Below the pieces are notes generated by a model, which had not been told where the DNA came from, ran no database searches, and saw only the letters and a list, made by a program, of their open reading frames with translations. A program made the translations under genes and the position numbers. Source: Candidatus Moanibacter sp. (GTDB taxonomy: Bacteria; Verrucomicrobiota; Verrucomicrobiia; Opitutales; UBA2987). Taken from it: 64,000 bases of DNA. This document shows positions 1 through 53,216 of the stretch, one piece after another; the first letter of the stretch is position 1; the number at the start of each line of letters is the position of its first letter. The stretch covers positions 1 to 64,000 of the forward strand of contig CBDCEW010000090.1 in the NCBI GenBank assembly GCA_965215885.1, in the 5' to 3' direction.

Positions 1-10
1 GGGATTTGAT

Positions 11-71
11 GTGGAACGCCCGCGTAATAGGCGCGAGCTAGTGAGCGTCCTTATTGACGCGTTTGTTAGGC
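11..71 (-). other. attC: integron attC recombination site
   Basis: Minus strand GCCTAAC (R'') ... CGCGT[C]AA / TTACGCG (L boxes with an extrahelical base) ... GTTCCAC (R'). 61-bp imperfect palindrome right after the cassette ORF stop once IS4 is removed. Confidence 0.85.
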
Positions 72-80
72 TTATAATTC

Positions 81-1399
81 CAGTACTGTCCGGTTATAAG
101 TCAAACAACTCCAACTGTTTAGGAATGCGGTGTTCATTGAAAGTGTAATCGGTTTCTGTAAGTAGTTCAGTCATAGGAGTTTTCTCAAATAGGGTGAAGC
201 TGAGAATCTGTAGGATTTTGTGCAAACTGATCTCCAGGCGAAGGCGTTTGCGGATGATGGCGATGAGCACATAGACGCTGACGGCAATCCAGATTTGAGT
301 CTTCACAGCATTCTCGGAGGTGCCGAAAAAGCTCTTGATGCGCAAGTGCTGTTTGATCCATTTGAAGAACAATTCGATCTGCCAGCGTAAACGGTAAATC
401 TGGGTGATGATTATGGCTGGGAGGGCAAACTGGTTGGTGAGAAACACGAAGCGCTCGGAACTGTCGGGGTCGAGGTAAGTGATACGCCGGAGTCTTGCGG
501 GGTAGGCCTTGGCAGGATAGAAGCTGACCAGGGCAACGGTCTGGTCCGAACGCAGACCGGTTGATTTGTCGACCTTTTGAGAGTAGAGGCGGCGAAACTG
601 AAAGCCGCGGCGGGCGCGTGTGACGAAGAAAGAACCGCATTGTGCGATCCGATAGAGGCGCTCGTAATGCAGATAGGCTCGGTCCATTACATAGTAAGCA
701 CCGGCCTCGGGGATGATGAGATCCAGAATGTTTACGTCGTGAACTTTTCCATCGGTAATCTCGATAAAATAAGGGATAGAGCCTCTGAGATCGAGAAGCG
801 TATGGACCTTCACCGCCCCCTTGTGCTTGCGGAAACGTGCCCACGGGAAGAGTGATAGACATAGATCGATCGTGGTGGAGTCCAGAGCGTAGAGCGTATT
901 GTCCAGGTCGATGCCCAGATCCTCGTTTGAATACAAAGGACGAGCCATTGCGATGAGGACCTGTGCAAAGTCGGCGTAGATGCGCCAGTCTCGTTTCTCG
1001 TTGGCATCGGCGAGCGTGCTTTTGGATACTCCGCTTCGAAGCCCTGCGTGGTATAGTTTTGGTTGTACTGCCCGCAGGCAGGTTTCGATGTCGCGCAGAC
1101 TCTCCCGGTAGGTCAACTCGGCAAAACCCATGCAGAGAAATTGTTCGAAGCAACTGAACTTTTGAACTTTGTAGGCGCCTCCGTAGCGTTGGACGCAACG
1201 ATGGAACTGATGGCGCGGAAGATAATCTATGATTTGAGAAAAAACGAATCGACCTGTATACATGATTTGGACCCTCGAAATTTTTGAGAGTCCACAAGGC
1301 TTTTTGCAATTTCAAGTCGAAAACAGCAGAAATCATATGTAAAATGTTGGTTATCAATCGATTAACCTGCGTTCCTAGAAAAACAACCGGACAGTAGTG
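81..1399 (-). mobile_element. IS4-family insertion sequence, copy 1 (1,319 bp)
   Basis: Terminal IRs cagtactgtccggtt / aaccggacagtagtg; 9-bp TSD ttataattc at 72-80 and 1400-1408. Confidence 0.93.
94..1263 (-). CDS. IS4-family DDE transposase (DUF4372-like N-terminus)
   Basis: LDSTTIDL, MDRAY and YRLRWQIELFFKWIKQ (YREK) motifs; three near-identical copies in the window. Confidence 0.93.
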   Translation of the reverse strand: MYTGRFVFSQIIDYLPRHQFHRCVQRYGGAYKVQKFSCFEQFLCMGFAELTYRESLRDIETCLRAVQPKLYHAGLRSGVSKSTLADANEKRDWRIYADFAQVLIAMARPLYSNEDLGIDLDNTLYALDSTTIDLCLSLFPWARFRKHKGAVKVHTLLDLRGSIPYFIEITDGKVHDVNILDLIIPEAGAYYVMDRAYLHYERLYRIAQCGSFFVTRARRGFQFRRLYSQKVDKSTGLRSDQTVALVSFYPAKAYPARLRRITYLDPDSSERFVFLTNQFALPAIIITQIYRLRWQIELFFKWIKQHLRIKSFFGTSENAVKTQIWIAVSVYVLIAIIRKRLRLEISLHKILQILSFTLFEKTPMTELLTETDYTFNEHRIPKQLELFDL

Positions 1400-1843
1400 T
1401 TATAATTCATCAATTGAGTTTTGTATCCGCTCAAGATCCGCCTGAAAAGCAATTTCAAGCTGTTCTAAAGATTGTGCTGCTCTCACCATATTTGTTTGAT
1501 CAATCCAAATTCCTGCGGATTGTGCGGCTGATTCTATCCTTCTTTGTGTCCCAAACCGTGGCTCAAAGAAAGGCATACCTGCTCTCAGAGATATAAGTAA
1601 TGCTTCCTTATCCATTTCGTTCTGGCTTCGATAAAATTCAACAAATTTTTTTCTTACCTCTTGGTACGACTGCTTCCTTTCATTTAACTCTGTAATAAGA
1701 AGCTCTCGCTTAGCAATTATCCTCGCTGTTTCAAGCTCAGCTGAGTGATTTTTTTGGAGAATCAAATACTGGGTCACACCAGTAAAAACAGCTCCAATCG
1801 CGCCAGCTATTATCAGTTGTTTCCAGTTCTTGCTATCGCTCAT
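1400..1843 (-). CDS. hypothetical integron cassette protein with N-terminal TM segment and coiled coil
   Basis: ORF from MSDSKNWKQLIIAGAIGAVF; AT-rich; lies between two attC sites. Confidence 0.75.
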   Translation of the reverse strand: MSDSKNWKQLIIAGAIGAVFTGVTQYLILQKNHSAELETARIIAKRELLITELNERKQSYQEVRKKFVEFYRSQNEMDKEALLISLRAGMPFFEPRFGTQRRIESAAQSAGIWIDQTNMVRAAQSLEQLEIAFQADLERIQNSIDEL

Positions 1844-1861
1844 ATTTGAATCCCAGAAAAA

Positions 1862-1924
1862 GCCTAACGCTATGCGTGATTCGCGGCGGCGCAAGCCGAC
1901 GTTGAGTCGACGCAATTGTTAGGT
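1862..1924 (-). other. attC: integron attC recombination site
   Basis: Minus strand ACCTAAC (contains the upstream ORF's TAA stop) ... TGCGT[C]GA / TCACGCA ... GTTAGGC; 63 bp. GTTAGGC is complementary to the GCCTAAC of the next attC. Confidence 0.88.
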
Positions 1925-2184
1925 ACTTTTTTCTTCATCTATTCGCATTTCGAGTTTCTCCCGTTCCAAGAAGTCCAAAAGATATTTCGCGATTCCACAG
2001 ACCACCATTGTGTGGCTTTCGTCATCAATCAGTTTCCATTGTCGCGTATGTCGCAGTGTCTCGTTGTAATCCGGATCTGCATGCGCACCTTCTTTGTCAG
2101 CGATGGACTTTATCAATTCACGGATAGTAATCCGTGTCTGGAGTTTGGCCCGTTTCGAGTCACGTAGCAACTACGAGTTAATTC

Positions 2185-3618
2185 TTAAGCGGCTTGAAAG
2201 AGGGAGCTGGCAAGATGGGGGCTGAGTTTCTCCGACTTGTGGGTACCACTTTTAGGATCAACGAAGTGGGAGAAACTCGATGGTCGCAGACTGCCCGCCC
2301 AAGTCTCGTATCTGAGTTGCTGCAGTAAGTCTGAAGTGGTTGGGCCCTGCATGGAGCGTTTATCGGTGCGCCACTTGGCCGGCTCGAAGATGCCTTGTTG
2401 ATGGCGCTTGGGATCGGATTGGTAGGAGGCCAGCCACAACATCGAGTAGGCTGCCACGTTGAGGGCGGGAAGGTTTCTGTTGGACGCTTCGGTCCTGACC
2501 TGGGCCTCGCCCATGCCTAAGAGGGTCTTCTCATCGCGGAAGTTGGGCTCTATCTGCCAGCGCCAAAGATAGTATTGGAGAAACTCTTCAAGCGCTAATT
2601 GGGGATCGGTGCAAATCAGGTAAGCGGGCTTTCTGTAGAGCAACTTTGCCTTCTTCTGAAGCCGGTATCGGAGCGGAGCAATGATCAAAAGCTGCAAAGG
2701 GCGTTTTGCTCCGCTCTTGCGCCACAAAAGATCCTTCACCCTCTTGACCTTAAAGCGGTGGCGCTTACCGGCCGCGAAGGCCTCCACATATTCCCACGGC
2801 ACTTCCTGGTCCTTGCGAATCTGTTCGGGCGTGGGAATCTCTGGCCCGTAGCTTGGTCGGCGTCCGGTTTTGGGCGCCTGCCCGGGCATTTTGCAAAGCG
2901 TAGCGTCCTTGCGGATGCGCCCGATCATGGTGGTGCGTTCGGGCAGAGCCTTGAGGAAGTCTCCATTGGTATAGCTGCCGTCGGCCACGACGATCAGTTC
3001 GCGTTCGACCTCCATAGAGTCTCTGAGCAGTGCAACGCGCTGTATGGCCTGTCGATTGAGTTTGAGCTGCTTTTTGCTCTCTTTATAGCATTGGACCTGC
3101 TCCTGTGTGGCTTTTGCCCCCGGCTTGCGCGCGGAGGGCGCATGGGTCAGATCAATAGGAATCATGCGGGCCGAACCGTCCTCTGCGGCAAGGGCGGCGG
3201 AAAGTTGGATGAATCGCTGGGCGAGCACGAGGTTAACTTGGAATTTGGGACCGAGGGGATCTCTGCGCCAGCCCACTCCGTGGATACGAGTTCCACTTTT
3301 TTGCCGTAGGGTGTCGTCAAGTGCTACGACCATGGGCCTATCGGGCGGAAGCATTCGCTCGATCTTCTCACGGATAACCGCGAAGCACTCATCAGGGTCG
3401 ACTCTGCTCTTCGAATACATCCTGTAGTGTGCGCTCCAATCCTCGTATTGGCGTCCGCCCGTCGTGATGATTCCAGTGACGGTACGCCTGCCCAGGCACA
3501 GAAGGGTGCACAAGATGTGCTCTCTGAAGCGATTGAAGCAGCTTGTTGTGGAGCAGGCTTTGGCACACGATCCAATGATACCTTCCAAGGTTTCTAGAAG
3601 TGAGGAGCCGTTTTTTTT
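2185..3618 (-). CDS. DDE transposase (IS701-like), probably translated through a -1 frameshift from the upstream ORF
   Basis: LDDTLRQKSG, VADGSY and YLWRWQIEPNFRDEK motifs; 5' end uncertain. Confidence 0.82.
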   Translation of the reverse strand, partial: KKNGSSLLETLEGIIGSCAKACSTTSCFNRFREHILCTLLCLGRRTVTGIITTGGRQYEDWSAHYRMYSKSRVDPDECFAVIREKIERMLPPDRPMVVALDDTLRQKSGTRIHGVGWRRDPLGPKFQVNLVLAQRFIQLSAALAAEDGSARMIPIDLTHAPSARKPGAKATQEQVQCYKESKKQLKLNRQAIQRVALLRDSMEVERELIVVADGSYTNGDFLKALPERTTMIGRIRKDATLCKMPGQAPKTGRRPSYGPEIPTPEQIRKDQEVPWEYVEAFAAGKRHRFKVKRVKDLLWRKSGAKRPLQLLIIAPLRYRLQKKAKLLYRKPAYLICTDPQLALEEFLQYYLWRWQIEPNFRDEKTLLGMGEAQVRTEASNRNLPALNVAAYSMLWLASYQSDPKRHQQGIFEPAKWRTDKRSMQGPTTSDLLQQLRYETWAGSLRPSSFSHFVDPKSGTHKSEKLSPHLASSLFQAA

Positions 3619-3803
3619 ACACCCACCGGATTGGGAGGGGCATTGGATCGGGCCAGGATCATATGGCCTTTGTCGGCAATAATCCACTCCACCATCTCTC
3701 CTTTGCCAAACTCCATCGCCTGAGCTACCGCCGAAGGCAGATTGATATACCACTGTTCGCTACGCTTGCGCCTGATGAGTTGAACTTTAGTTGGGAATCC
3801 CAT
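3594..3803 (-). CDS. small AbrB/MazE-like DNA-binding ORF inside the IS
   Basis: KVQLIRR..QWYINLPSAVAQAMEFGKGEMVEW resembles the swapped-hairpin pattern; ends over an A8 run. Confidence 0.65.
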   Translation of the reverse strand: MGFPTKVQLIRRKRSEQWYINLPSAVAQAMEFGKGEMVEWIIADKGHMILARSNAPPNPVGVKKTAPHF

Positions 3804-4547
3804 GGGCCATGATCTAGTTACATAACTAGATCACAGTCAAGCTAAATACTTGCTTTTGAAGAAAAAAGGGAAATAAGGGAGCAATATATCTAGTAAAAGG
3901 CCAAACTCCAGTCACGGATAGTAATCCGTGTGTTCATACAAGGTTGCTGAACCCATTCCCTCAACGGAAGCCGATCTTTGGATTTGTCGAAGAGAAGCGC
4001 AAAGACCGCTCTGCCCGTTGCGTCACGCGTCAGTCTACCGGGTATGTGAGTGTGGAGCCCGTCTGCGAACGACGGGATCGATTCAAGTAATCCTGTAATA
4101 TGAAGCTTATGAAGGGGCACCTCTTTGAACACTCGTAAGAGCAACGGTTGCGGCCGATCGCACATTAATTTCCGCAGTTCCACGGCGATGACGCGATAAA
4201 CATCCCTCGCACCACCTGCGAATAGCTCCAGATTCGCTTCGAGAATCGCCAATGAAGCCCGGAAGTCTTCTGATGTTTTGCTCATTTTATTTTTGTCTAG
4301 TATTTAGGTAGACTAAACGCACTTCCCATTAGGTTCATTGAACAAAATACTGAATCATTGGTGGGAGCAGGATAACCTCTTGGGTACCAGCACTCAAGTG
4401 TTTATTCCCGTTGGGATGCACCTGATTTCATAGCTGCGATTTCTACGATTGAAAGAGGTTTGATTACGTTAATGGCGGGTCGTATGGCGCTGATGAGCTT
4501 CGTGAACGTCGCCGGCCCACGACGCTGTGAAAGACGTGATTCGGCTC

Positions 4548-4835
4548 TTACTTCCAGCGGCCTGACGATTTAGGGTTGTTAACGAAGCCCCAGGCCTCTT
4601 CAGGAAGCCACCCGTCAACTAAATGAGGCTTCATTTCACTAATGATGAAGAAGCCACTAGGATACTTAGTGTGGATGAGGATTCGAAGTTCTGCAGGGGT
4701 CCTTTCCGAGATTATTATGACGCCCTGCGAACCCAAGGTATACCAGTTCAGAATCACGGGCAACGTATCAAGAAAATCCAGGATAGTTTGGTGCGGTCCC
4801 ATGTTTTCAGAGTAGCAGAAGAGGTAAGGTATCAT
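4548..4835 (-). CDS. hypothetical 95-aa protein (C-terminal DGWLPEEAWGF motif)
   Basis: ATG overlaps the upstream stop (ATGA). Confidence 0.7.
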   Translation of the reverse strand: MIPYLFCYSENMGPHQTILDFLDTLPVILNWYTLGSQGVIIISERTPAELRILIHTKYPSGFFIISEMKPHLVDGWLPEEAWGFVNNPKSSGRWK

Positions 4836-5335
4836 TGTGAGTTCTTCCCTCCTTCCCTGAGAGCCTTTTGGGCCGGATTGGCAATGGCTTGTAGAGACGC
4901 AGGATCCAGTGCGATTCGGCCCGACTTTTGCTGGATCATTTGAAGAGTTTCGTGTCGGAGCTGGTAATCTGCGGACTCCAATTTCTCTGGCTTGAAGATC
5001 GCGAATCCAACAATTACGAGACTCGCAACAGCAATAGGTATCAGAGCAGCACCGACTAGCAAATTGCAGAGAGTGGAATTTAGCCTAAAGAAGTATGCCG
5101 CAAGGAGGCAAGTCGGTGTGGAAATCGCACAAAGCCATAGAGCCGGGTTGACAGCGCTGCTCACCTGGACTTTTTGGACGGTCCTACCTGCGAGACTAGC
5201 AAGTTTTTCCAGAATCTCCTCTGCCACGACTCTGTGTATCCCTCTATGTTTGAAGTAGTATTTGGGCAATGCGCCTATTGGTATGAATTGCAATCCTTGA
5301 GAAAACGCAACCATTTGGTGTCTGCGGTTGGTCAA
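4832..5335 (-). CDS. hypothetical two-TM membrane protein (start may lie further downstream)
   Basis: Two hydrophobic segments followed by FKPEKLESADYQL; coupled to 4548-4835. Confidence 0.7.
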   Translation of the reverse strand: MTNRRHQMVAFSQGLQFIPIGALPKYYFKHRGIHRVVAEEILEKLASLAGRTVQKVQVSSAVNPALWLCAISTPTCLLAAYFFRLNSTLCNLLVGAALIPIAVASLVIVGFAIFKPEKLESADYQLRHETLQMIQQKSGRIALDPASLQAIANPAQKALREGGKNSQ

Positions 5336-5808
5336 AAGAGGGAGAGTTGGGAGGGGTGTTTGGCCTTCCGGCGGCGGGGGCGTGTGAGGGTGTGGGCGTG
5401 GGCTAGGATGTCGATAGTGTGGGTGTCGGTCTCTTGGATTTTGGAGGTGTGTTGCAAGGCCAGATCAACGGCGTTGCGAGCGTGTTTCAATTCGTCGTAG
5501 AGGGCGTCGCCCTGGTGGGCTAGGTGTTCCTGAAGGCACTTCAATAAGTAACGGGGAAAGTAGATGCTTCGAGTGACAGGATCGCTGTGCTCCTTGACCT
5601 CGGCGATGCGGTCGAGAATGAATCTCTCGTAGCGCTTGGCGGTCATGCGGAGGCCGCGTTCCTTCATCCACTTTGCCGGCCAGGTGATGGCGTATATCAG
5701 GCCCTTTAGATCGCGATAGAAGACGGTGCGATCTACCTCGCGGTAGAAGGTGCCCTGGATGATATCGAGGAGGTCGTCAGTGGTCTCTTTCGCAGGTGAC
5801 GAGTTCAT
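5332..5808 (-). CDS. hypothetical phage protein
   Basis: 158-aa ORF in the phage-like run, ending QLSLF. Confidence 0.65.
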   Translation of the reverse strand: MNSSPAKETTDDLLDIIQGTFYREVDRTVFYRDLKGLIYAITWPAKWMKERGLRMTAKRYERFILDRIAEVKEHSDPVTRSIYFPRYLLKCLQEHLAHQGDALYDELKHARNAVDLALQHTSKIQETDTHTIDILAHAHTLTRPRRRKAKHPSQLSLF

Positions 5809-6148
5809 GTGTCGGTGGCGGGTTGTGGGTGTGGTGGACGCGGGATATTCTGAGGGCGCGGTCGATCATTTTATTCCCCTGGGAGCGGAGCCAGTTGACA
5901 GCGTGGTCGCGCTCGTCAGCCGTGGCTTCTCGGGTAAGTTTGTAACCTTTCTGGCCCGAGAGAATTTCGCCTTCGCTGAGTTCGGCGAGCTTGCGGCAGG
6001 TCCGTTCGTCCCAGGCGTAAATCTGCTTTACCTGGCGGGCTGTTATCCAATCGCGGCCACGGAGAAATGTCAGGAATTCATCGACGCGGCGATCCTCTTC
6101 GGGATCAACGTGGAGAGTCGGAAATTCTGACTGTTGGAGGGTGTTCAA
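5777..6148 (-). CDS. hypothetical phage protein, possibly winged-helix
   Basis: WITARQV...ERTCRKLAE...ILSGQKGYKL. Confidence 0.6.
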   Translation of the reverse strand: MNTLQQSEFPTLHVDPEEDRRVDEFLTFLRGRDWITARQVKQIYAWDERTCRKLAELSEGEILSGQKGYKLTREATADERDHAVNWLRSQGNKMIDRALRISRVHHTHNPPPTHELVTCERDH

Positions 6149-6218
6149 CGGTTGAAAAGATACTACTCAAATGTATAGTAGTCACTCAGTTCGCAGTAGC
6201 GATTTTATGTCTCGTCAC

Positions 6219-6452
6219 TCATTCTTGAAGCAATGAGATATGACCATCCTCCTCCTTAGCGAATCCGTCTTTGACCATGTCGGCGCGAACTCTTGGACCG
6301 ATGGGTTCCCGGTCGTCGTCAAACCGATCAGTCGATATGCGGCCACCAACATTGCTGATGTATTGGATGTACATGGCATAACGCGCTTCCTTTCGATATA
6401 GCTCCATTATCATTTTGATTCCTCCGTCACTCAGGGGAGATTTCTGCTTCAC
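6219..6452 (-). CDS. hypothetical protein
   Basis: 77-aa ORF co-oriented with the phage genes. Confidence 0.45.
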   Translation of the reverse strand: MKQKSPLSDGGIKMIMELYRKEARYAMYIQYISNVGGRISTDRFDDDREPIGPRVRADMVKDGFAKEEDGHISLLQE

Positions 6453-6794
6453 CGCTTATTCTAACGATTCACAAAGTGCTGTTGGTAAGTTGTTAGCAGA
6501 TTCGGCTTGTTTCTGCCTAAGACTGCTGTTCCTTGTTTCGATATTATGGAAATAAAGCAGATAAGAATTCTCGAGGGAGACACCCTTGAAAAACTCGAGA
6601 GCAGAGTAAACGCCTTCCTCCTGGATGCGGCCACTCCTGTCAGGGACGACCCTGTTCGAGACGACAAACCGAAAGCCAATTGGCAGCCACTTGGAGGGAT
6701 CGTATTTACACCTGATGGTAACGCGATCATGCTGATGGTGGAATACTTTGCCGTCGGGCGTCGTTGGGGGAGATTTCTCGATTCGGTTTCATGG

Positions 6795-7253
6795 CTACTG
6801 CGTGTGGGCGAAATTGAGGAGGGATTCTCCCTTGTGGGCTTTGGCGCGGGAGTGTTCGGTGAGGGTGATTCGGAGTTGGCGAAGGGATTCGATGGGGAGG
6901 TTGCGCCAGTCTTTGTGGAATGCGAATTTGTCGCGGGCGATGGTGATGATGTAGGCCTCGGGAGCGGCGTGTGAGATGGCATAGAAGAGCCGGCGGCGTT
7001 CGCCTTCCTCGGCGACGCTTTCTATGCTTGCCGGGTGGGGTATGAGCCCACGGAGGCGCTTGCGCATGACATCGAATACGAGGTCGTATTCTTTGTGGGA
7101 GAATCCCTTGTGGGATCTGTCGTAGCCGAGGGCTTGGCGGTGGAGTTCATGGCGGGCTTCTGTGTCGTTTTGGCGCACGTCTTCCTTGGCGCAGAGACGG
7201 CGCCAGGTTTTCCAGTAATAGGCTTCCTCGGGGGGGAGTTTTTTGCGTTTCAT
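6795..7253 (-). CDS. Mu GemA/gp16-like protein
   Basis: ARHELHRQALGYDRSHKGFSHKEYDLV pattern; position downstream of gam. Confidence 0.5.
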   Translation of the reverse strand: MKRKKLPPEEAYYWKTWRRLCAKEDVRQNDTEARHELHRQALGYDRSHKGFSHKEYDLVFDVMRKRLRGLIPHPASIESVAEEGERRRLFYAISHAAPEAYIITIARDKFAFHKDWRNLPIESLRQLRITLTEHSRAKAHKGESLLNFAHTQ

Positions 7254-7286
7254 CCTCGTGGCCTTTCTGTCATTGTAGATCTCGTT

Positions 7287-7529
7287 ATGTTGGGTCTTAT
7301 CGTGCAATCTACAGGACTGCTGTTGGACATAGTGGGTGTAATTTTCATCTTCGTTTATGGGATTCCGCCGAGCCCTTATGATATCCCTAAAGGGGGATTG
7401 AGATGGGACGACGGACAGATGTCCGAGGTTACGAAGTTCAAAGATCGATCGAGGCTTGGACTCGGGTTCCTCATTGGTGGATTTGCGCTTCAGTTTGTTG
7501 GGCTGTGGATGAGCTGGTTAATCGCATAG
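7287..7529 (+). CDS. small two-TM membrane protein, opposite strand to the phage genes
   Basis: MLGLIVQSTGLLLDIVGVIFIFVYG...LGLGFLIGGFALQFVG. Confidence 0.6.
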   Translation: MLGLIVQSTGLLLDIVGVIFIFVYGIPPSPYDIPKGGLRWDDGQMSEVTKFKDRSRLGLGFLIGGFALQFVGLWMSWLIA

Positions 7530-7736
7530 GTTAATCAGTGATTTGTTGGCTACCTCTGCGTCGATGAATTCGTAGTGGCCGACGGCGAGTTCCAGGCCGA
7601 TCTGGTCGATGTCTTCGGGGAGGATCTCGTGGTCGTAGGTGGCCGGGTAGCCGTCGACTGATACCAAGGTGATATCGACCTCAGCGAGGGCTTTGGCGGA
7701 TGATGCGTGTTCTTCGAGATGGACGAATAGCTTCAT
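7518..7736 (-). CDS. hypothetical acidic phage protein
   Basis: 72-aa ORF coupled to the gam stop. Confidence 0.55.
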   Translation of the reverse strand: MKLFVHLEEHASSAKALAEVDITLVSVDGYPATYDHEILPEDIDQIGLELAVGHYEFIDAEVANKSLINLCD

Positions 7737-8290
7737 CAGCGCTGTCCCTCGGTGGAGGCCTCATCCTTCTTGATGTTGGAGAGGACTTTTGAGGTGTCGG
7801 TCTTGAGGGGGGTGACTTTGAAGTTCTCGGAGGTCTTGCTTTGGATACCGAGCACTTCGAGCCATTCCTCGTTGAGGCGTTCGCAGGCTTCGAGGTCGAT
7901 CTCGTCGCGCTTGCGAATCAGGTCCTTGACGAGGCCGTGGCGAGGAATCCTGCGAATGGTGGCGGCCGCGTCCGGTATAACGATCTTGCCCGACTTCTGG
8001 AGCCCGAAGGTGCCGAAGGCGGTCTTGATTTTCTTGCGCTTCGCGAACCACTCCGGGTGTTCCCGGCAGAGGCATTCAAGGGCCTCTGCCGCTTCTGCGA
8101 TACGCTCATTGAGGCCGGTCAGAACTTCGCCATCGTCGGCAACGATCATGGTGAGGTGGTTGTCGATGTCGGCCTGAATAGACCGGACTTTGACGGTGGC
8201 CTCGGTGATTTCCCACATGAGTCGGGTAGCGAGGACGATGTCGTCGACTTCTTCGGAGGGTGGGTCTTCTGTGGTGGCTTCTTTGGTCAT
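7736..8290 (-). CDS. gam: Mu Gam-like host-nuclease inhibitor
   Basis: Coiled coil, then EHPEWFAKRKKIKTAFGTFGLQKS and LIRKRDEID...LGIQSKTSENFKVTP. Confidence 0.75.
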   Translation of the reverse strand: MTKEATTEDPPSEEVDDIVLATRLMWEITEATVKVRSIQADIDNHLTMIVADDGEVLTGLNERIAEAAEALECLCREHPEWFAKRKKIKTAFGTFGLQKSGKIVIPDAAATIRRIPRHGLVKDLIRKRDEIDLEACERLNEEWLEVLGIQSKTSENFKVTPLKTDTSKVLSNIKKDEASTEGQR

Positions 8291-8501
8291 GTTGATGTTC
8301 CTTTCTGTTGGTGGTTGGTGTCGAAATGCTGCCGCATTCCGCTACTTGAAGATAGAAGGTTGAGTTCGGCGGCGTCGCCGCGTTCGACGCCGTCCGGGTA
8401 GTGGCCGGGGTGGTCGGTGGTGAGACGGCCGAGGGAGGGCCCAGGAGGAGAGAAATCCTTCCGGATTCCTCTACGTGGCTGTGGTTGGTGGGTGGGCATG
8501 A

Positions 8502-8915
8502 TCAGACGGTTTCGGGCAGTTCGAGGTTGGCGAAGATCTGGTGGGCGCGGACGAAGTATGACCAGTCGAGTTTCTTGCCGGCTTTGCGGGCCACTTTCTG
8601 GCCGCAGTTGAGGGTGAGAGTGAGTCGCTTGAGGCCGTGGAAGTAGGCGAGGTCGCGGAGGATGTCCCACTGGTCGCTGCGCGGAAAGTTTTTCCACCGT
8701 TCGCCGCGCCTGGCGGCGGGAAAGGTTAAACCGTAGTCGATGCAGATGGCGCGAATATCGCGGATGGGGGAAGCGTCGGGCAGCTGCTTTTTGAGGATGC
8801 CGCGGCGATTGAGCTGCTCGAGGAGGCGGTGGTCTTTTCCCTCTCTTATTTCGTCGCGAAATACGTTGGTGCCACAGAGGACCATGCCGCACTTTGAGCG
8901 GTCTTGGCGTCGCCA
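8502..8915 (-). pseudogene. C-terminal fragment of a MuB-like AAA ATPase
   Basis: KCGMVLCGTNVFRDE...LLEQLNRR (sensor region); Walker A/B part absent, truncated at the tRNA. Confidence 0.6.
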
Positions 8916-8920
8916 AAATT

Positions 8921-9010
<90 letters not shown>

Positions 9011-9012
9011 AG

Positions 9013-9230
9013 ATGTTTTGGTTGCCTACGTGTTTTGCGTGATTGGTTACAGTCTCAAATCACCCGCAAAATTATTCGCTGGTCGGGGTCATGACCTTAA
9101 GAAGTGTCTGTTTTTCCGCTTCGCTAACGGGTCACCCTGCGAAACAGACACTTCTAAGGCTTGACCCCTTGCTTCCAACATCGAACTAAGACATTTGCAA
9201 TCACGCAAAACACCTAGGCAACCAAAACAT
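9013..9230. repeat. nested inverted-repeat element (REPIN/MITE-like)
   Basis: 33-bp IR at 9013-9045 / 9198-9230 (1 mismatch) enclosing a second IR ggggtca..agaagtgtctgttt / aaacagacacttct..tgacccc. Confidence 0.8.
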
Positions 9231-9389
9231 ACAAATGTAGGATTTGCGTCCTGCTTGTCAGTGAAATAATGCGTGCCTGTGGGAATTGGCTCGTCCGCTG
9301 ATTGCGAACTCGGAACTGCGCCCAAGAATACCTACCCTGTCGGTCAACTCAGCTCTCAAGACAGATTCCGGAAAACTTCGATCCTCAAT

Positions 9390-9451
9390 CTTCGCCCGTC
9401 GAACACCGTTAGGAGCCGTGGGCCGGCGGAGCCGCCGTGGGTTTAACTCTT
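9390..9451 (+). repeat. 62-bp dispersed repeat, second copy at 11083-11144
   Basis: Shared core caccgttaggarccgtgggccggyggagccgc. Confidence 0.7.
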
Positions 9452-9654
9452 CGTCTCTGACATTCGAAGGCAAGCTCAGGGTGCTTAGAAGAAAGGTATG
9501 CCCGCTAAACACGCGAAGACACGCGAAAATCGGATCTTCGGGAAAGGGAGCAGCGGATTTCTCTAAACATTGCCCTAAAGAATAACAAGTCATCTCCGGT
9601 TTGGAATGAGAGCTATTGAGGCCTTTTCCGTTGCTGTGCTTTAATCGCTTCGGG

Positions 9655-9736
9655 TTTAATTCCCCGAAGCTTGCTTCGTTTCTAATTCATAAAGTCTAAT
9701 ATCAAATGCCTCGGGGCTTGCCCCGAGGATCTTTAC
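9655..9736. repeat. short double-hairpin element resembling IS200/IS605-type ends
   Basis: Hairpins cgaagcttgcttcg and cctcggggcttgccccgagg; no transposase. Confidence 0.45.
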
Positions 9737-9759
9737 TCCGCTGCCATTCTCGCATTCCT

Positions 9760-10965: not shown

Positions 10966-11411
10966 GGTACGATTATTGAAGCGACGAGGCTGACGACAGA
11001 GGCCGGCTGAGTAGCGAAGACGGATCGAGGGGCGAGCGAATCGGAGTCGCTTGGTGGTTCTTTCGGCTTTGAAACTATCGACCTTCACCCGCCGATCACC
11101 GTTAGGAACCGTGGGCCGGTGGAGCCGCAGTGGGGCTAATTCTTGATCCCGCTGACGGGTCTTCTGGATTGCTTCGTCTTTCCTCCTCGCAATGACAGCT
11201 GTTATTCCTGGATTGCTTTGCTTCGGCGAAGAGGAGGCTCGTTCTTCCCCGTTCCGCTCGGCGGGAAGAGCGACGACGGGTCGTAAACCTTGTCGACACG
11301 ATCCCGACTTTCGGACCGCGAAAAGTGAAATTCGAATGTCAGAAAAGCCGAAATCGACTTGTTAATGTACTAAATCATGTACATAATTGTGATTGAATAG
11401 AGCTAAATGCT

Positions 11412-11699
11412 ATGAAATTTCTAAGTGTAAAGGAGTTGAGGGCGCAGGCGGCGCGGGTGTGGCGAGAACTTCCGAGGACAAGGGAGATAGTAATCACGAA
11501 CAACGGGCATCCGATTGCGATTCTTTCCGCAGTGGACGAAGCGAACGTGGAAAGCACGCTATCTGCATTTCGGCGGGCGCGTGCAATCGAAGCCGTTGCT
11601 TCGCTCCAACGCGAGTCTTTAGAGAAGGGGATGGACAAGCTGACGCCGGGAGAGATTCAACGTGAGGTGAAGGCCGCACGCCAAAACCGGCGGATATGA
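11412..11699 (+). CDS. Phd/YefM-family antitoxin
   Basis: MKFLSVKELR...EIVITNNGHPIAIL; ATGA overlap with the PIN gene. Confidence 0.88.
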   Translation: MKFLSVKELRAQAARVWRELPRTREIVITNNGHPIAILSAVDEANVESTLSAFRRARAIEAVASLQRESLEKGMDKLTPGEIQREVKAARQNRRI

Positions 11700-12133
11700 G
11701 AGTAGTCTTGGATACAAATGTGCTTGTATCCGGACTCCTGTCGCCATACGGCCATTCGGCTAGGATTGTCAGATTGGTTGCTTCCGGTAAACTCGAGCTC
11801 GGTCTTGATGCCCGTTTGTTGTGTGAGTATAAGGATGTACTGCATCGACCGAAATTCGATTTTGAAGCCGGTAGAATCGATGCCTTCCTGGCTCAAGTCG
11901 AAGGCTGTGGGATAATTGTCGCATCGAGTCCGTTACCGATTCCTCTGCCGGACACGGATGATGATGCCTTTTTGGAAGTAGCATTAGCGGGTCGGGCGGA
12001 ATGCCTGGTGACGGGAAATATTGTCCACTTTCCCAAGGAGTTGAGACAAGGGATACGCGTGCTGTCGCCTGCGGAAATTGTCGAGTTTTATCGAGATCAG
12101 AGAGGCGTAGAAGAAGTGGAGAGGGATCAGTAA
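11696..12133 (+). CDS. PIN-domain toxin (PIN_3-type)
   Basis: MRVVLDTNVLVSGL...DTDDDAFLEVA...LVTGN. Confidence 0.9.
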   Translation: MRVVLDTNVLVSGLLSPYGHSARIVRLVASGKLELGLDARLLCEYKDVLHRPKFDFEAGRIDAFLAQVEGCGIIVASSPLPIPLPDTDDDAFLEVALAGRAECLVTGNIVHFPKELRQGIRVLSPAEIVEFYRDQRGVEEVERDQ

Positions 12134-12149: not shown

Positions 12150-13371
12150 ATGCCCGCTAAACACGCGAAAATGCGCGAAAGGCCGAATTTTTGGAAAGGA
12201 GAGTCCCGGCTCGCTGGGATTGCCGTTTGCCGTAATTTTGAATGCGGCGTTGTGTTTGTTGGTAGCAGTTGGACTTCCGGGTTGTGGGGGCTCGGATGTG
12301 GAGGAAACGGCGGCTGGGGATAATGGCAAAACACGCGGTTCTCCAGCGGCTGCGGATTCGGAAGGCAGAGAGAATTATCTCGCTCTCATTAAGCGTAGAC
12401 TGCCGGCCCGAAGCTACGCGACAAATGAGTTGCTGCCTGAAAACGGCTACCAACCCACGCCGCGCCGGGAGGGGGAACTGGATAGGATTCGCATCGGATT
12501 GCCGTGGGTCTTGAACGACGAAGCGGCGCCCTGGTTTATCGCTCAGGAGAAGGGCTTTTTTCGGGAGACGGGACTGGAGGCGGAGTTGCTTCCCGGGGGA
12601 CCGGGCTACGACTATTTGAAGCTCCTGGCGGGCGGCCAGGTCGACGTCGCAATCATCGGAAATGGCTTGCGTCTGCCGCTGGCAGTGGCCAGCCGGACCC
12701 GGCTCGACGCGGTCGCGATCGGGACCTTTCTGAAACATTCCCCCTCGGCCTGGATTGGACTGGATAACGGCGTACCTAAGAATCAGAGGAGCGGCAAGGT
12801 GCTCACCCGGAAGGATTTCATCGGGGTAAAAGTGGGTCTGGTTCCGGAAAGGATGTATGCGGCTCAATATGTGGAGCGATATTTTGAATTGCCGTCGGGA
12901 AGCATTGCGACGATGCGGGGGGGATTCTCCGCCGAACCCCTAATCGTGGGCGCATACCAGTACTACGGAGGCTGGATCATCAATCAGACCCGTCTCCTCG
13001 AAGCCCAGGGATATTACAACTGGACAGCACTGATGATGAAGGATATCGGGCTCGACGAGCCGAGCGATGTCTCGGTCGTGGAACGGAATACCTTCGAGAC
13101 GCGCCGGGACCTGCTGCGCCGCTACCTGTGGGCCATGGATAACGCCATTGTGTATCTGCTCGCCGAACCAGTGGAAGCGGCGCGCATTACGCAGCGTTAC
13201 GCATCCGGGAGTCAACTGAGTCTGGAGCAGATCGAGCAGCGGTTAGCGATGCAACGGCCGCTAGTCACGGGCGAGAATCCGGAGGAACCGCTGCAGTACA
13301 TGGATCTCGATATTTGGGACCGAAGCGCCGCCGTCCTGTTCGAACACGGGCAGTTGGAAGTGGAAGAGTGA
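12150..13371 (+). CDS. NMT1/THI5-like ABC substrate-binding lipoprotein (start uncertain)
   Basis: IGLPWVLNDEAAPWFIAQEKGFFRETGLEAELLPGG; lipobox-like LPGC. Confidence 0.82.
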
Positions 13372-16532: not shown

Positions 16533-16925
16533 TCAAGGAGATTCGATCAACAAACCCGGCACGCGTTCGAAATGAGCATCGTAAGCGACTAATCGTCCCC
16601 CGGCTTCGAGAGCTGCCGCTGCAATCCAGATGTCATTCGTCGGGATCGGAGTACCCTGTTCTCGGAGGACCTTCACGATCCTGCCGTAGCGCTCCGCGAT
16701 GTTCTCGGTGAGATCAAGCACCGCTACACCCGGTTGCTGTCGGAATTCGGCAAGTTCGGCAAGGTTCTGTTCACGACGCGTGCCGGACCCGAAACCTGCG
16801 TATAACTCGCCCAGTACCGTCACTGGGCGGAAAATCGCATCAACCTCCTCGATCCGTCCCTTTAGTCCTATTGACCCGCGCATCAACCGGCTGTAGGCGC
16901 TGGTGTCAAGGGACAACTTGGTCAT
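16533..16925 (-). CDS. vapC: VapC-family PIN toxin
   Basis: LDTSAY...VLGEL...GTPIPTNDIWIAA...DAHFERVPGL. Confidence 0.9.
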   Translation of the reverse strand: MTKLSLDTSAYSRLMRGSIGLKGRIEEVDAIFRPVTVLGELYAGFGSGTRREQNLAELAEFRQQPGVAVLDLTENIAERYGRIVKVLREQGTPIPTNDIWIAAAALEAGGRLVAYDAHFERVPGLLIESP

Positions 16926-49539: not shown

Positions 49540-52500
49540 AGAGGAATTTACAAATGAGGAAGGAGAGGAATTCCACCTGTTCTGGAGAGATCAGGGCTTG
49601 TTTGACGAAGATGGAATCCTGACGGGCATCGTGGCAGTTGGGAGGGATTTCACCGCTGAAAAGAAAGCGGAAGCGGAGATAAAGTGGGCACAGGATGCTC
49701 TGCGCAAGAGCGAAGAGCAGTATCGCCTCGTCGTTGAATCGCAGTCTGAAATGATCAATCAGTTCAGGCCGGATGGGGAGATAATTTTCCTTAACAACAA
49801 CTACCGCAACTTTGTCGAGCGAGTCTGGGGCTACCATAAAGTAACTACCGGTATCAATCTTTTCGGAGTCGTCGATGAGAATACGGGTACGTGGATCAAG
49901 CGGGAAATCGGAATACTTAAGACGGAGGAAGATCGGTGGGAGCATGAGGAATGCATTCGTGATTTAGATGGGATAGAGATTTTCGTCCGATGGGAAAACA
50001 AGGCCCTGTTCGACGAAGAAGGCAGGGTAACTTCGTTTCTTAGCGTTGGTCGCGATGTTACGTTGGAGCGGAAAGCCGAAGAAAAAATCAGGGAAGTCCA
50101 GGAGGCCCTTCGGAAGAGAGAGCAACAGCACCGCGTGATCATGGACGGAATTCCCGACATGATTGACCAGGTAACTCCAGAAGGAGAGATTATCTATTCC
50201 AATAGATCACGACGGGAATTTCTGAGAGATGCCGGAGTGGAAGAGAGTGGCGGTGTAGGAGCGAATATTTTTGACCACATGGCCTCCGAGGATGCGATTG
50301 AACTTCGCGAAAACTTCGAGAACTTCGATCCGGAGCATCCAATCTCTCAGCATGAAATGATATTTATCGGCGCAAACGGTCAGAAATATCACCTCCGATG
50401 GAGAAATCAGGCGCTGTTTGATGACGACGGAAAGGTCTCGAGCGTTGTCGGAATCGGGCGGGACTTTACCTCGGAAAAGCGAGCGGAAGGAGAAATCAGA
50501 CGGGTTCAGGAGGCACTCAGCCAGCGCGAAGCCCAATACCGGCTCGTTGTCGAATCACAGTCGGAGATAATCAATCAATTCGAACCCTCAGGAGAGATTA
50601 TATTCTGTAACAAGAATTACGAAGACTACTTTGAGAGGTCGTGGACATCGGAAAAGGGACGGATCGGGTCGAACTTGTTCGAAAATGTGGATAAAGATAC
50701 CGCCGATCTAATAAAAAGGGAACTCTCCAAACTGAAAACAGAAGATGACCGGTGGGTGTATGAAGAACGCAATAAAGAAAGTGACGATAGAGAGATCTTG
50801 GTGCATTGGGAGAATAAGGCGCTCTTTGATGCCGACGGCAAAGTATGGAGTTATCTGAGTGTTGGCCGCGATATCACAGAAGCCAAGTTAGCCGAGCAGA
50901 AAATACTGAGAACGCAAGAAGCGCTTCGCCAGAGTGAGGAGCGAAACCGGCTGATTCTCGACCGTGCCTTCGCCGCTGTTGTCAGTATGGACCTGGAAGG
51001 AAGGATCACGGCCTGGAATTTTCGCGCCGAAGAAACGTTTGGTTGGTCGAAGGATGAAGCAATCGGTCGATTGGTAGGAGAGACGATTATACCGGTTCGT
51101 TACAGGGAAAGACACAGGAAGGGCTTGGAGTTGTAATTGAGGACAGGCAAATCGAGAATAATTGATAACGTCATCGAGATAGAGGCACTACATCGTGATG
51201 GGCACGAATTTCCGGTCGATATCGCCATTACCCATATCCAACTTCCAGGCGGTAGACTATTTACAGCGTTTATTCGCGACATCTCGGACCGAAAGAAGGC
51301 CGAGGAGGCGCTTCGGAAACAGGAAGAGCGCTTCCGTCTGCTTGTGCAGAATTCCACGGATCTTGTTGTTATTCTGGATGAAAATCTCAAGCGGCGATAC
51401 GTAAGCCCCTCCTTCGGACGAATCACTGGATTCAAGCCCGAAGAAACAATCGGAAGCGATGGGTTGGGTTTTGTCCATCCCGAGGATCGACCACGCCTCC
51501 AGGCGGAGTACGCGAAGAGTCGTAAGGATCCGGAGTATATTGTCAGGGCGGACTATCGATTGCGCCATGCCGATGGATCGTGGGTTTATATGGAGGGAAT
51601 TGCTACGAATCTCTTGAGCGAGCCCAGTGTGAACGGATTCGTTGTGAACAGTCGCGATGTCTCAGAGCGAAAGCGGTCAGAAGAAGAGTTGCGAAAAGCC
51701 AAAGAAGCGGCCGAGTCGGCAACGCGCGCCAAGAGCGAATTCCTGGCCAACATGAGTCATGAAATTCGGACGTCGATGAATGCAATTCTGGGATTTTCGG
51801 AGTTACTCGAACGGAAAATCGAAGACGCGAGTCTGAAGCATTATCTGGACTCGATATCATCAAGTGGAAGGACGCTTCTCGGTTTGATTAACGACCTGCT
51901 CGATCTTTCAAAAATCGAGGCCGGGAAGTTGAACATAGAGTGGGAGCCGGTTAATGTGGGCACCGTGTTTGAGGAGATCAGGGACATTTTTGAGTTACGA
52001 ACAAAGGAGAAGAATCTGGATCTATTTCTGGACATTGATGCGGCGCTCCCGAGTTGGATTCTGCTCGACGAAGTGCGCGTGCGGCAGGTGCTTTTCAACC
52101 TCGTTGGAAACGCGATAAAATTCACGGAATCCGGTCATGTTCGATTACTCGTGGAAAAAGCTTATGATGAAGTAGACGAGAGTAAGCTGGATTTGAGCTT
52201 TTCAGTCGAAGATACGGGTGTAGGCATCAAGGCAGAAGAACAGGATCGAATCTTTGAGGAATTTGAACAGCAGAGCGGACAGAGTTCGCGAATCTTCGGC
52301 GGAACGGGACTGGGCCTGTCGATTACGAAACGGCTTGTGAATTTAATGGGTGGAACGATCGAGGTAGAGAGTGAAGTAGGGAAGGGGACAACGGTAAAAG
52401 TTGTATTGAAGGACCTCGAGGTGGCATCTGTAGACGAAGATGCGAGAAAGACGGATGATGAGGACTTCGAAGAGGTGATTTTTGATCCTGCTACCGTGCT

Positions 52501-53216
52501 CGTGGTGGAAGATAATAACCTTAACCGGGCCCTTGTAAGAGAACTTCTCGAAAACACGGGGTTGACGATTCTGGAAGCAGAAAACGGTCTCGAAGCCGTA
52601 GAAGCGGCGGTAAGGAATCATCCGGAATTGATCCTGATGGATATCTCAATGCCGGTAATGAATGGTCGAGAGGCCTCAAAGTCGATCAGGGAGAATTCGG
52701 AAATTGGCTCCACGCCGATCATAGTATTGACCGCTTCGTCTTCGAGCAGGGAAGCTGTTATGACACCCGAACTTGCTCTAGACGGGTACCTTTCGAAGCC
52801 GGTGCAGCGATCTCATATGATCAATGAAATAAAACGATTCCTGTCTCATCGGCGGCTGACGGAGACGACCGCGGAAACCAGGTCGGAAGGTTCGGTCGAA
52901 GAGAGTCCCGTGAGCGATCCGCTCATTCCGATCGACCCTGCCCGCAGGAGTTCGCTTCGGAACCTCGTTGAACGTCTCAAAGGTGAGATAATGGAAGAAT
53001 ACGAAGTGTGTGCCAAGAGGAGGAGGGTGGCAAGAATTCGAGCGTTCGCTGAGAAGATCGGCCGTATGGGAAAGGAGCATGACGTGCAGGATCTCACGGA
53101 TTTCTCCAATGAACTCAGCGCAGTTCTGGCAAGTCTCGACGTCGCCAAAATGGCCCACAAGCTGGGTGAGTATCCGCGAATCGTAGACCGGATAGAGAAC
53201 CGGGTTGCTTAGGCAC

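What the first reader, a model, noticed from the sequence alone, without database searches (positions are those of the whole stretch)
11..4285. Integron cassette array without an integrase in view
Seen: two 61-63-bp attC sites with R''/R' boxes and extrahelical bases. The R' half of attC 1862-1924 (GTTAGGC) exactly complements the R'' of attC 11-71 (GCCTAAC), as expected for one circularisable cassette, and one ORF's stop lies inside R''. The array continues off the left edge. Upstream, where intI/attI would normally be, lie a moron-like pair, phage genes and a tRNA. Inference: a CALIN, or cassettes captured on a tRNA-anchored island.
Basis: partly seen in the sequence, partly recalled or inferred. 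Interest (0 to 1): 0.72.

Follow-up and report, generated by a model that had tools for sequence, protein, structure and literature searches.

The report
Integrase-less integron array, hit by ISs
This is a real row of integron gene cassettes with no integrase gene beside it, about three quarters of the marked stretch being two inserted transposons, and it is likely an ordinary orphan cassette array that the intact integrase elsewhere in the same genome could still act on.

Summary
Both attC sites are real. 1862-1924 scores 62 bits with a model built only from this genome's integrase-linked arrays. 11-71 scores weakly there (16 bits) but is 85-91% identical to 61-bp sites in marine gammaproteobacteria. 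The core-site match and the stop inside R'' are as reported. The left edge is a contig end. The array continues on overlapping contig C49 (same locus, IS4-free allele, bridged by a public-run contig) with three more attC sites, so five in all. No tyrosine recombinase lies on C90 or C49; an intact IntI lies on C100. It meets the CALIN definition. A tRNA-anchored island is unsupported: no integrase, no att duplication, and the phage genes are a truncated Mu-like remnant. The 'moron' pair is a conserved module, cassette-borne in 4 of 11 homologous loci. One curiosity: a non-attC landing site inside the array recurs at four loci with different cassettes. The scan noted similar orphan landing sites in other genomes.

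The parts
1..16 (-). Start of an ORF-less segment that follows attC 11-71; it continues on contig C49 (54307 downward)
   Evidence: Window 1-80 matches C49:54298-54377
11..71 (-). attC2, 61 bp, R'' GCCTAAC, R' GTTCCAC (GTTCCGC in the C49 allele); bottom-strand bulged bases G, T, T
   Evidence: weak under model R1 (15.8 bits); 85-91% identical relatives
72..80 (.). First copy of the 9-bp IS4 target duplication; it holds a copy of the cassette-2 stop codon directly before R''
81..1399 (-). IS4-family element, 1319 bp, transposase 1263-94 (389 aa); 39 full copies in the assembly, 30 with an exact 9-bp duplication; absent from the C49 allele
   Evidence: NF033592 255 bits over cut-off 115
1400..1843 (-). 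Cassette-2 gene, 147 aa, intact, N-terminal hydrophobic segment then a charged helical region; no homolog found
   Evidence: (only itself among 1193 candidates)
17..1867 (-). Cassette 2, crossover to crossover: 1851 bp with the IS4, 523 bp without
   Evidence: Computed from core sites and IS boundaries
1862..1924 (-). attC1, 63 bp, R'' ACCTAAC, R' GTTAGGC, bottom-strand bulged G and T; same family as attC sites in the IntI-linked arrays
   Evidence: 62.3 bits, E 5.5e-14; fold z -3.06
1919..2137 (-). 3' part (72 codons and stop) of the cassette-1 gene; stop inside R'' of attC1
   Evidence: Aligns to the C-terminal part of 185-190-aa homologs
2138..3911 (-). IS701-type element, 1774 bp (transposase 3753-2185, small MazE/AbrB-like ORF 3803-3594), flanked by a 20-bp palindromic duplication at 2118-2137 and 3912-3931
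   Evidence: NF049999 194 bits over cut-off 170
3932..4285 (-). 5' part (118 codons) of the cassette-1 gene; the uninterrupted gene would be 190 aa; weak HEPN-like fold hint
   Evidence: homolog L026 is a clean cassette
4295..4441 (-). 147-bp non-coding element, 88% identical to C97:77178-77322; lies where the 5' core site of cassette 1 is expected; no GTTAGGT is present
   Evidence: not found in 300 other genomes of the order
4446..4472 (-). 27-bp motif also found just after two attC sites on C49 (54257, 51221)
   Evidence: 25 of 27 identical
4548..5229 (-). Conserved two-gene module (about 130-aa protein with two hydrophobic segments, then a 95-aa protein); possibly a decayed upstream cassette; no detectable attC after it here
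   Evidence: Both genes adjacent in 11 of 11 loci; cassette cores in 4 of 11; no model hit or fold at 4484-4547
5332..8885 (-). Mu-like prophage remnant and orphan ORFs: Gam (8290-7736) and the C-terminal third of a MuB-like AAA ATPase (8885-8502); no transposase or integrase
   Evidence: PF07352, phrog_491; 39% identity to residues 278-412 of an AAA_22 protein
8921..9010 (-). tRNA-Ser(TGA); no duplicate of its 3' part on C90 or C49

Best explanation
The stretch is the upstream end of a five-attC cassette array with no integrase gene on either of its contigs (a CALIN), likely built by an integron integrase acting from elsewhere in the genome and now decaying under IS insertion. Shown: the attC sites, four cassettes with matched core sites (cassette 2 here; a RelE/Gp49-HTH toxin-antitoxin pair, an ankyrin gene and a DUF454 gene on C49), the two IS insertions, the C49/C90 join, and an intact IntI on C100 whose array uses the same attC family. 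Inferred from integron biochemistry: IntI would fold the bottom strands, cut at G/TT and excise or stack cassettes. Cassette 2 would excise as a 523-bp circle, or 1851 bp with the IS4, with a perfectly paired R box. Cassette 1 has lost its 5' core site and its gene is broken, so it is likely fixed. How the array first came to lie beside the tRNA is not resolved; secondary-site insertion into a decayed mobile region followed by stacking is my preferred route.
For: Independent model hits on C90 and C49. Chain of exact core matches GTTAGGC/GCCTAAC, GTTCGCC/GGCGAAC, GTTAGCG/CGCTAAC, GTTGGGC/GCCCAAC; background 19 of 670. PF00589 hits 6 places, none on C90 or C49; no intI remnant by tblastn in C90:1-30000 or C49:25001-end (best E 0.82). 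IntI C100:128290-129222 scores 431 bits against TIGR02249 cut-off 265. One X4 contig of 1727 bp spans C49:53442 to window 2167. IS4-free joints 71/1400 in 3 of 4 runs laid. Cassette-1 homolog L026 has matched GTTAGGC/GCCTAAC cores. CALINs and in-trans mobilisation are discussed in PMC4889954 (passages); secondary-site insertion in 10.1101/2022.09.11.507474 (abstract and passages).
Against: attC 11-71 is weak under the genome's own model and shows no covariation above shuffles. No excised circle or reordered array was seen in either read-laying run (contigs only, low depth). The 5' core of cassette 1 is missing, so the array's origin cannot be read. The assembly is 90% complete with 5.5% contamination, so C100 could belong to a sister strain and an unassembled intI cannot be excluded elsewhere. 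The second metagenomic homolog of cassette 1 (L027) shows no clear attC.
Confidence: 0.85

Rival explanations
1. The array is the remnant of a complete integron that stood here and lost intI and attI by deletion, perhaps in the event that also truncated the Mu-like block. It is a CALIN either way; this rival concerns origin.
For: The 5' core of cassette 1 is missing and the upstream region is a patchwork of truncated pieces. The genome holds a frameshifted intI on C105 and a 5' fragment on C100, so integrase decay happens here.
Against: No intI fragment within 30 kb on either side. The upstream 262 bp show no similarity to the attI regions of C100 or C105 at E < 0.05. PMC4889954 reports intI pseudogenes near only 15 of 279 CALINs (passage).
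Confidence: 0.3
2. The cassettes were captured on a tRNA-Ser-anchored island or prophage and arrived with it.
For: tRNA-Ser lies 4.6 kb upstream with phage genes between. C92 has a loosely similar layout: tRNA-Ser, a partial tyrosine recombinase, an attC-like site, a TPR gene. CALINs in phages and prophages are published (PMC9892861, passages).
Against: No integrase on C90 or C49. No tRNA 3' duplicate of 14 bp or more. The phage genes are of the transposable Mu type (recalled: these integrate by transposition, not at tRNAs) and the ATPase gene is cut 36 bp from the tRNA end. The flanking pair has no viral match.
Confidence: 0.12
3. The array is only an assembly fragment of one of the complete integrons, cut off by the contig break.
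For: The window starts at a contig end in a 105-contig assembly full of IS copies.
Against: The integrase would lie upstream (rightward), where C90 runs on for 114 kb without one; public-run contigs tile 3887-8949 with overlaps. The downstream end runs into ordinary genes on C49. The intI genes of C100 and C105 lie mid-contig with their own arrays.
Confidence: 0.03

Closest known systems
[quoted passage not shown] 2016, PMC4889954, passages read)
   Same: At least two attC sites, same strand, within 4 kb of each other, no nearby intI; five sites is the reported average; IS elements present; IntI on the same genome; cargo of unknown proteins and a toxin-antitoxin pair.
   Different: Nothing essential. 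It includes a non-attC landing site in mid-array and ORF-less segments, which attC-based tools would not annotate.
Cassette insertion at secondary attG sites, giving SALINs and small CALINs (Loot et al., 10.1101/2022.09.11.507474; abstract and passages read)
   Same: A possible origin: many isolated attC sites are scattered through this genome (35 model hits at E <= 1), with IntI available in trans.
   Different: No G/TTAGGT junction is preserved upstream of cassette 1, so an attG event cannot be shown here.
Phage- and prophage-associated CALINs (PMC9892861, passages read)
   Same: Cassette array beside a cryptic prophage remnant; that paper also reports a CALIN headed by its own attI.
   Different: Only a few early Mu-like genes remain, upstream of the array; no evidence the array lies inside the phage.
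IS4 and IS701 families (De Palmenaer et al. 2008, PMC2266710, passages read)
   Same: The IS4 element makes 9-bp duplications, within the family range; the second transposase passes an IS701 model.
   Different: IS701 elements are described with 4-bp duplications; this one makes 20-23-bp duplications of palindromic targets.

Membership tests
CALIN | At least two attC sites clustered within 4 kb on one strand | tested here: met
   11-71 and 1862-1924, plus C49 52489-52578, 51781-51843, 51272-51328; own model, not IntegronFinder's
CALIN | No integron integrase nearby | tested here: met
   No TIGR02249 or PF00589 hit on C90 or C49; no remnant by tblastn
CALIN | Call by the IntegronFinder attC covariance model | not testable with these tools
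   That model is not available; model R1 from this genome's integrase-linked arrays was used instead
attC site (1862-1924) | R''/R' cores, L-box stem, bulged G and T on the bottom strand | tested here: met
attC site (11-71) | R''/R' cores, L-box stem, bulged bases on the bottom strand | tested here: met
   Structure and 61-bp relatives fit; model score is weak (15.8 bits) and covariation is not significant
Gene cassette (cassette 2) | 5' core complements own R''; one gene ending at attC | tested here: met
   in the IS4-free allele the stop abuts R''
Gene cassette (cassette 1) | 5' core site GTTAGGT upstream of the gene | tested here: not met
   No GTTAGGT or TTAGGT on the top strand in 4286-9000; homolog L026 does have matched cores
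attC site (function) | Recombined by IntI | not testable with these tools
   Needs a recombination assay; no circle or reordered array in contigs of the runs laid
tRNA-integrated island | Integrase beside the tRNA | tested here: not met
tRNA-integrated island | Duplicated tRNA 3' end closing the element | tested here: not met
   None of 14 bp or more on C90 or C49
IS701 family (2138-3911) | Transposase passes an IS701 model | tested here: met
   NF049999 194 bits, cut-off 170
IS701 family (2138-3911) | 4-bp target duplication | tested here: not met
   20-23 bp in 5 of 6 full copies; about 30 bp with a mismatch in the sixth; family norm from PMC2266710
HEPN fold (cassette-1 family) | Structural match and R-x4-6-H motif | tested here: inconclusive
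   Model of homolog P0002 (pLDDT 93.6) matches 7ae2_A at Z 6.5, rmsd 3.4, 108 aligned, tied with unrelated helical hits; conserved K133 and H137; no Foldseek hit

The most novel reading that the evidence does not exclude
The array is one node of a genome-wide network of integrase-less landing sites served in trans by one IntI. Inside it (C49:53270-53500) sits a non-coding site, unlike this genome's attI regions and not a canonical attC, that recurs on C4, C93 and C76. All four copies end at the same GTT and are followed by different sequence whose heptamer is matched by the next R'' (3 at model-positive attC sites, 1 by heptamer only). Contigs of another sample diverge at the same base. It would be a dispersed third type of IntI target, an attI-like site with a bulged hairpin.
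Probability: 0.25. Interest if true: 0.6.

Novelty: new member of a known kind. Interest (0 to 1): 0.27.

Why it matters
CALINs are common (279 in the first survey, 2961 in a later one, from passages of PMC4889954 and 10.1101/2022.09.11.507474), so this one is ordinary as a class. It is a clear natural example of decay in progress: one cassette gene broken by an IS in all alleles seen, another with a polymorphic IS4 that spares the gene, and a toxin gene with an early stop. If the internal landing site proves to be an active IntI target, it would help test whether orphan arrays are still loaded in trans. The cargo offers two unnamed families for defence screens.

Tried and rejected
A third attC after the two-gene module (4484-4547): only GCCGAAT after the stop; no model hit at E <= 10, fold z +0.5, no partner core upstream; left as possible but unsupported. 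The 147-bp element as a second landing-site family: its C97 and C92 relatives end in GTT but have no matching R'' at an attC downstream; rejected. IS4 targeting of attC sites: 1 of 39 copies lies within 200 bp of a listed attC; rejected. My first heuristic attC scan gave 218 genome-wide hits, mostly noise, and was replaced by model R1. A mixed-length attC alignment was poor and dropped for 7 of those 11 sites. The automatic cassette test on the 11 pair loci confirmed a partner core in only 1; a simpler core-pair test found 4, matching inspection. Relatives: of 40 genomes, matches to 4286-9700 were the tRNA, an upstream repeat and one orphan ORF; no syntenic empty site. The two C49 non-coding elements were not found in 400 other genomes of the phylum, bar one 21-bp match, nor the landing-site motif in viral contigs. 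A degenerate attC2 pattern in 300 genomes gave mostly coding chance hits. No Pfam, PADLOC or NCBIfam family for the window's cassette genes or the pair; PHROGs gave only an unnamed family for the pair's first gene. No phage record for the ATPase fragment. The protein atlas gave no result. Rfam finds only the tRNA. Promoter scan of 4200-5400 is at chance. A cassette-length line printed used the wrong end point and is not used.
Full report
Setting. The window is G000:C90:1-64000, so its left edge is a contig end. The assembly has 105 contigs, is 90.3% complete and 5.5% contaminated. All features below read on the minus strand.

The attC sites. To test them independently I built a covariance model from 7 attC sites of the two integrase-linked arrays on C100 and C105. 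Its structure covaries in that alignment (90% of cells paired, 0 of 500 shuffles as high). Site 1862-1924 scores 62.3 bits, E 5.5e-14; site 11-71 scores 15.8 bits, E 0.16. The first also folds well (z -3.06), the second does not (z -1.07). Site 11-71 is of another subtype: 8 plasmid-collection records from Photobacterium, Alteromonas and Vibrio match at 85-91%, as does one viral contig. I fetched 4 of the 8. With the viral match, all five are 61 bp with AAC and GTT in register. Pairing is 95% against 25-43% for slid controls, but the set is too uniform to show covariation (158 of 500 shuffles). The upstream R' complements the downstream R'' exactly; the background among cross-contig attC pairs is 19 of 670. 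I accept both sites, the second with less certainty.

About 3.1 of the 4.3 kb are transposons. 81-1399 is an IS4-family element (NF033592 over cut-off) with 39 full copies, 30 of them with an exact 9-bp duplication. Here the duplication contains the stop codon of the 147-aa cassette-2 gene, so the gene stays intact and the IS sits between it and attC2. Only 1 of the 39 copies is near an attC, so this is not targeting. 2138-3911 is an IS701-type element (NF049999 over cut-off) with a 20-bp palindromic duplication. It splits a gene whose natural homologs are 185-190 aa and align to both halves. One homolog in an unrelated metagenome contig is a clean cassette with matched cores (L026); the other (L027) shows no clear attC.

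The continuation. The last 750 bp of contig C49 equal window 1-80 plus 1409-2078, with 4 substitutions and no IS4. In public runs, 3 of 4 laid show the 71/1400 joint. One 1727-bp contig of run X4 spans C49:53442 to window 2167, into the end of the IS701-type element, with the C49 substitutions. A contig of X3 carries the window's substitutions without the IS4. So C49 and C90 are two alleles of one locus, the IS701-type insertion is shared, and the IS4 insertion is polymorphic. X3-X6 are one study and may include the source sample, so they are not independent of the assembly. On C49 the array continues: about 1 kb without a recognisable gene, a Gp49/RelE-HTH toxin-antitoxin pair (toxin frame with an early stop), attC 52489-52578, an ankyrin gene, attC 51781-51843, a DUF454 gene, attC 51272-51328, a second ORF-less segment, then ordinary genes. 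Four cassettes have exact matched cores.

Integrase. PF00589 hits 6 places, none on C90 or C49, and tblastn finds no intI remnant within 30 kb on either side. An uninterrupted 310-aa IntI lies on C100 (431 bits, cut-off 265); by inspection it keeps the catalytic motifs and integron-specific insertion (motifs recalled; sequence). A frameshifted intI lies on C105 and a 5' fragment on C100. attC1 belongs to the same family as sites in those arrays. The model finds 35 sites genome-wide at E <= 1 among 150 candidates scored, many isolated. The definition of a CALIN in PMC4889954 (passages) is met.

The upstream side. Cassette 1 has no GTTAGGT before it. Instead come a 147-bp element shared with C97 and a 27-bp motif that on C49 follows two true attC sites. 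It is a conserved module: both genes are adjacent in 11 of 11 genome loci from several phyla, and 4 of 11 have cassette cores, 3 exact and 1 with one mismatch. No viral contig encodes a relative. In the window no attC is detectable after it, so a decayed cassette is plausible but unproven. Beyond lie orphan ORFs, Gam and the last third of a MuB-like ATPase, cut 36 bp from the tRNA-Ser end. There is no tRNA 3' duplicate. This is a decayed Mu-like remnant beside a tRNA, not a recognisable tRNA island. C92 shows a loosely similar layout at another tRNA-Ser, which suggests these tRNAs collect mobile debris.

Mechanism. Shown: anatomy, IS insertions, allele polymorphism, an integrase in trans. Inferred from known integron biochemistry: the cassettes were stacked by IntI at G/TT crossovers, and cassette 2 and the C49 cassettes remain excisable. 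No circle or reordered array appeared in the contigs laid, which is weak negative evidence. For origin I favour secondary-site insertion and stacking (10.1101/2022.09.11.507474, abstract and passages) over loss of a local intI, but the missing 5' core prevents a decision. Phage-borne CALINs exist (PMC9892861, passages) but the evidence here does not place the array in a phage.

The one unusual feature. The toxin-antitoxin cassette on C49 is preceded not by a canonical attC but by a non-coding element ending at a GTT (C49:53270-53276). It recurs on C4, C93 and C76 with different 5' extents and the same 3' end. In all 4 the heptamer at the junction is complemented downstream: at model-positive attC sites on C49, C4 and C93, and by heptamer only, 131 bp away, on C76. 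Contigs of run X1, another study, diverge at the same base (loose end at 13274, 2 contigs). It holds a bulged hairpin (z -2.4) but with spacers unlike attC, and it did not match the attI regions of C100 or C105. It was not found in 400 other genomes. One literature search on dispersed attI sites (listing only) gave nothing specific; that is too thin to claim it is unpublished. The scan's own notes describe orphan attI-like pads in other genomes; these are unchecked AI notes.

Cargo. The 190-aa family has 244 representatives at E <= 0.001. A model of homolog P0002 (62-sequence alignment, pLDDT 93.6) gives no Foldseek hit; its best near-full-length match to a natural protein is a HEPN toxin at Z 6.5, rmsd 3.4, 108 residues, tied with unrelated helical hits. 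A defence RNase is a lead, not a finding. The cassette-2 protein has no homolog in the search made.

Verdict. Observation confirmed; CALIN supported; island reading not supported. A new member of a known kind, interest 0.27. Papers seen: passages of PMC4889954, PMC9892861 and PMC2266710; abstract and passages of 10.1101/2022.09.11.507474; others as listings only. No supplements were read.

Noticed in passing
window 2118-3931; copies on C49, C86, C94, C102: IS701-type element with a small MazE/AbrB-like ORF that duplicates 20-23 bp of palindromic targets (5 of 6 full copies; about 30 bp in the sixth), against 4 bp described for the family. One copy sits in the hairpin of the repeat at window 9640-9737.
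   Followed up: partly
L011:13270-13500 (C49:53270-53500); C4:3686-3913; C93:106555-106669; C76:24154-24221: Repeated non-coding element ending at one GTT and followed by different cassettes; attI-like or atypical attC; no integrase beside the copies.
   Followed up: partly
window 4548-5229; L035-L045: Unnamed two-gene module, adjacent in 11 of 11 loci across phyla, cassette-borne in 4; no Pfam or PADLOC hit; candidate defence pair.
   Followed up: partly
L011:14100-14307 and 11040-11275; window 4446-4472: ORF-less segment of about 200 bp with 32-bp tandem units, starting exactly at attC crossovers twice on C49; unit number differs in run X4.
   Followed up: partly
L032:2200-6735 (C92): tRNA-Ser(GGA), partial tyrosine recombinase, attC-like site 4520-4576, frameshifted TPR gene, then a duplicate of the recombinase 3' end: a cassette-like insert at a recombinase gene end.
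   Followed up: partly
L011:10871-10920: Left half of an attC in the opposite orientation near the distal end of the array.
   Followed up: no
window 9013-9230 and 9640-9737: Two multi-copy non-coding repeats (MITE-like); the first has 33-bp terminal inverted repeats and also lies beside the tRNA-Ser genes of C37 and C92.
   Followed up: no
window 5332-5808: 158-aa ORF with about 48-50% identical homologs on C92 and in G006, both outside any obvious phage context.
   Followed up: partly
L009:16345-18119 (C100): A transposase element (ISAs1-like by recall) lies between the intact intI and its array; a 91% identical intI 5' fragment lies 13 kb away inside the array.
   Followed up: no
L026:930-1195: The attC of the cassette-1 homolog is interrupted by a short insertion of about 140 bp just after R''.
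   Followed up: no
window 11412-12133: Phd/YefM-PIN toxin-antitoxin pair; another PIN-like ORF at 16533-16925.
   Followed up: no
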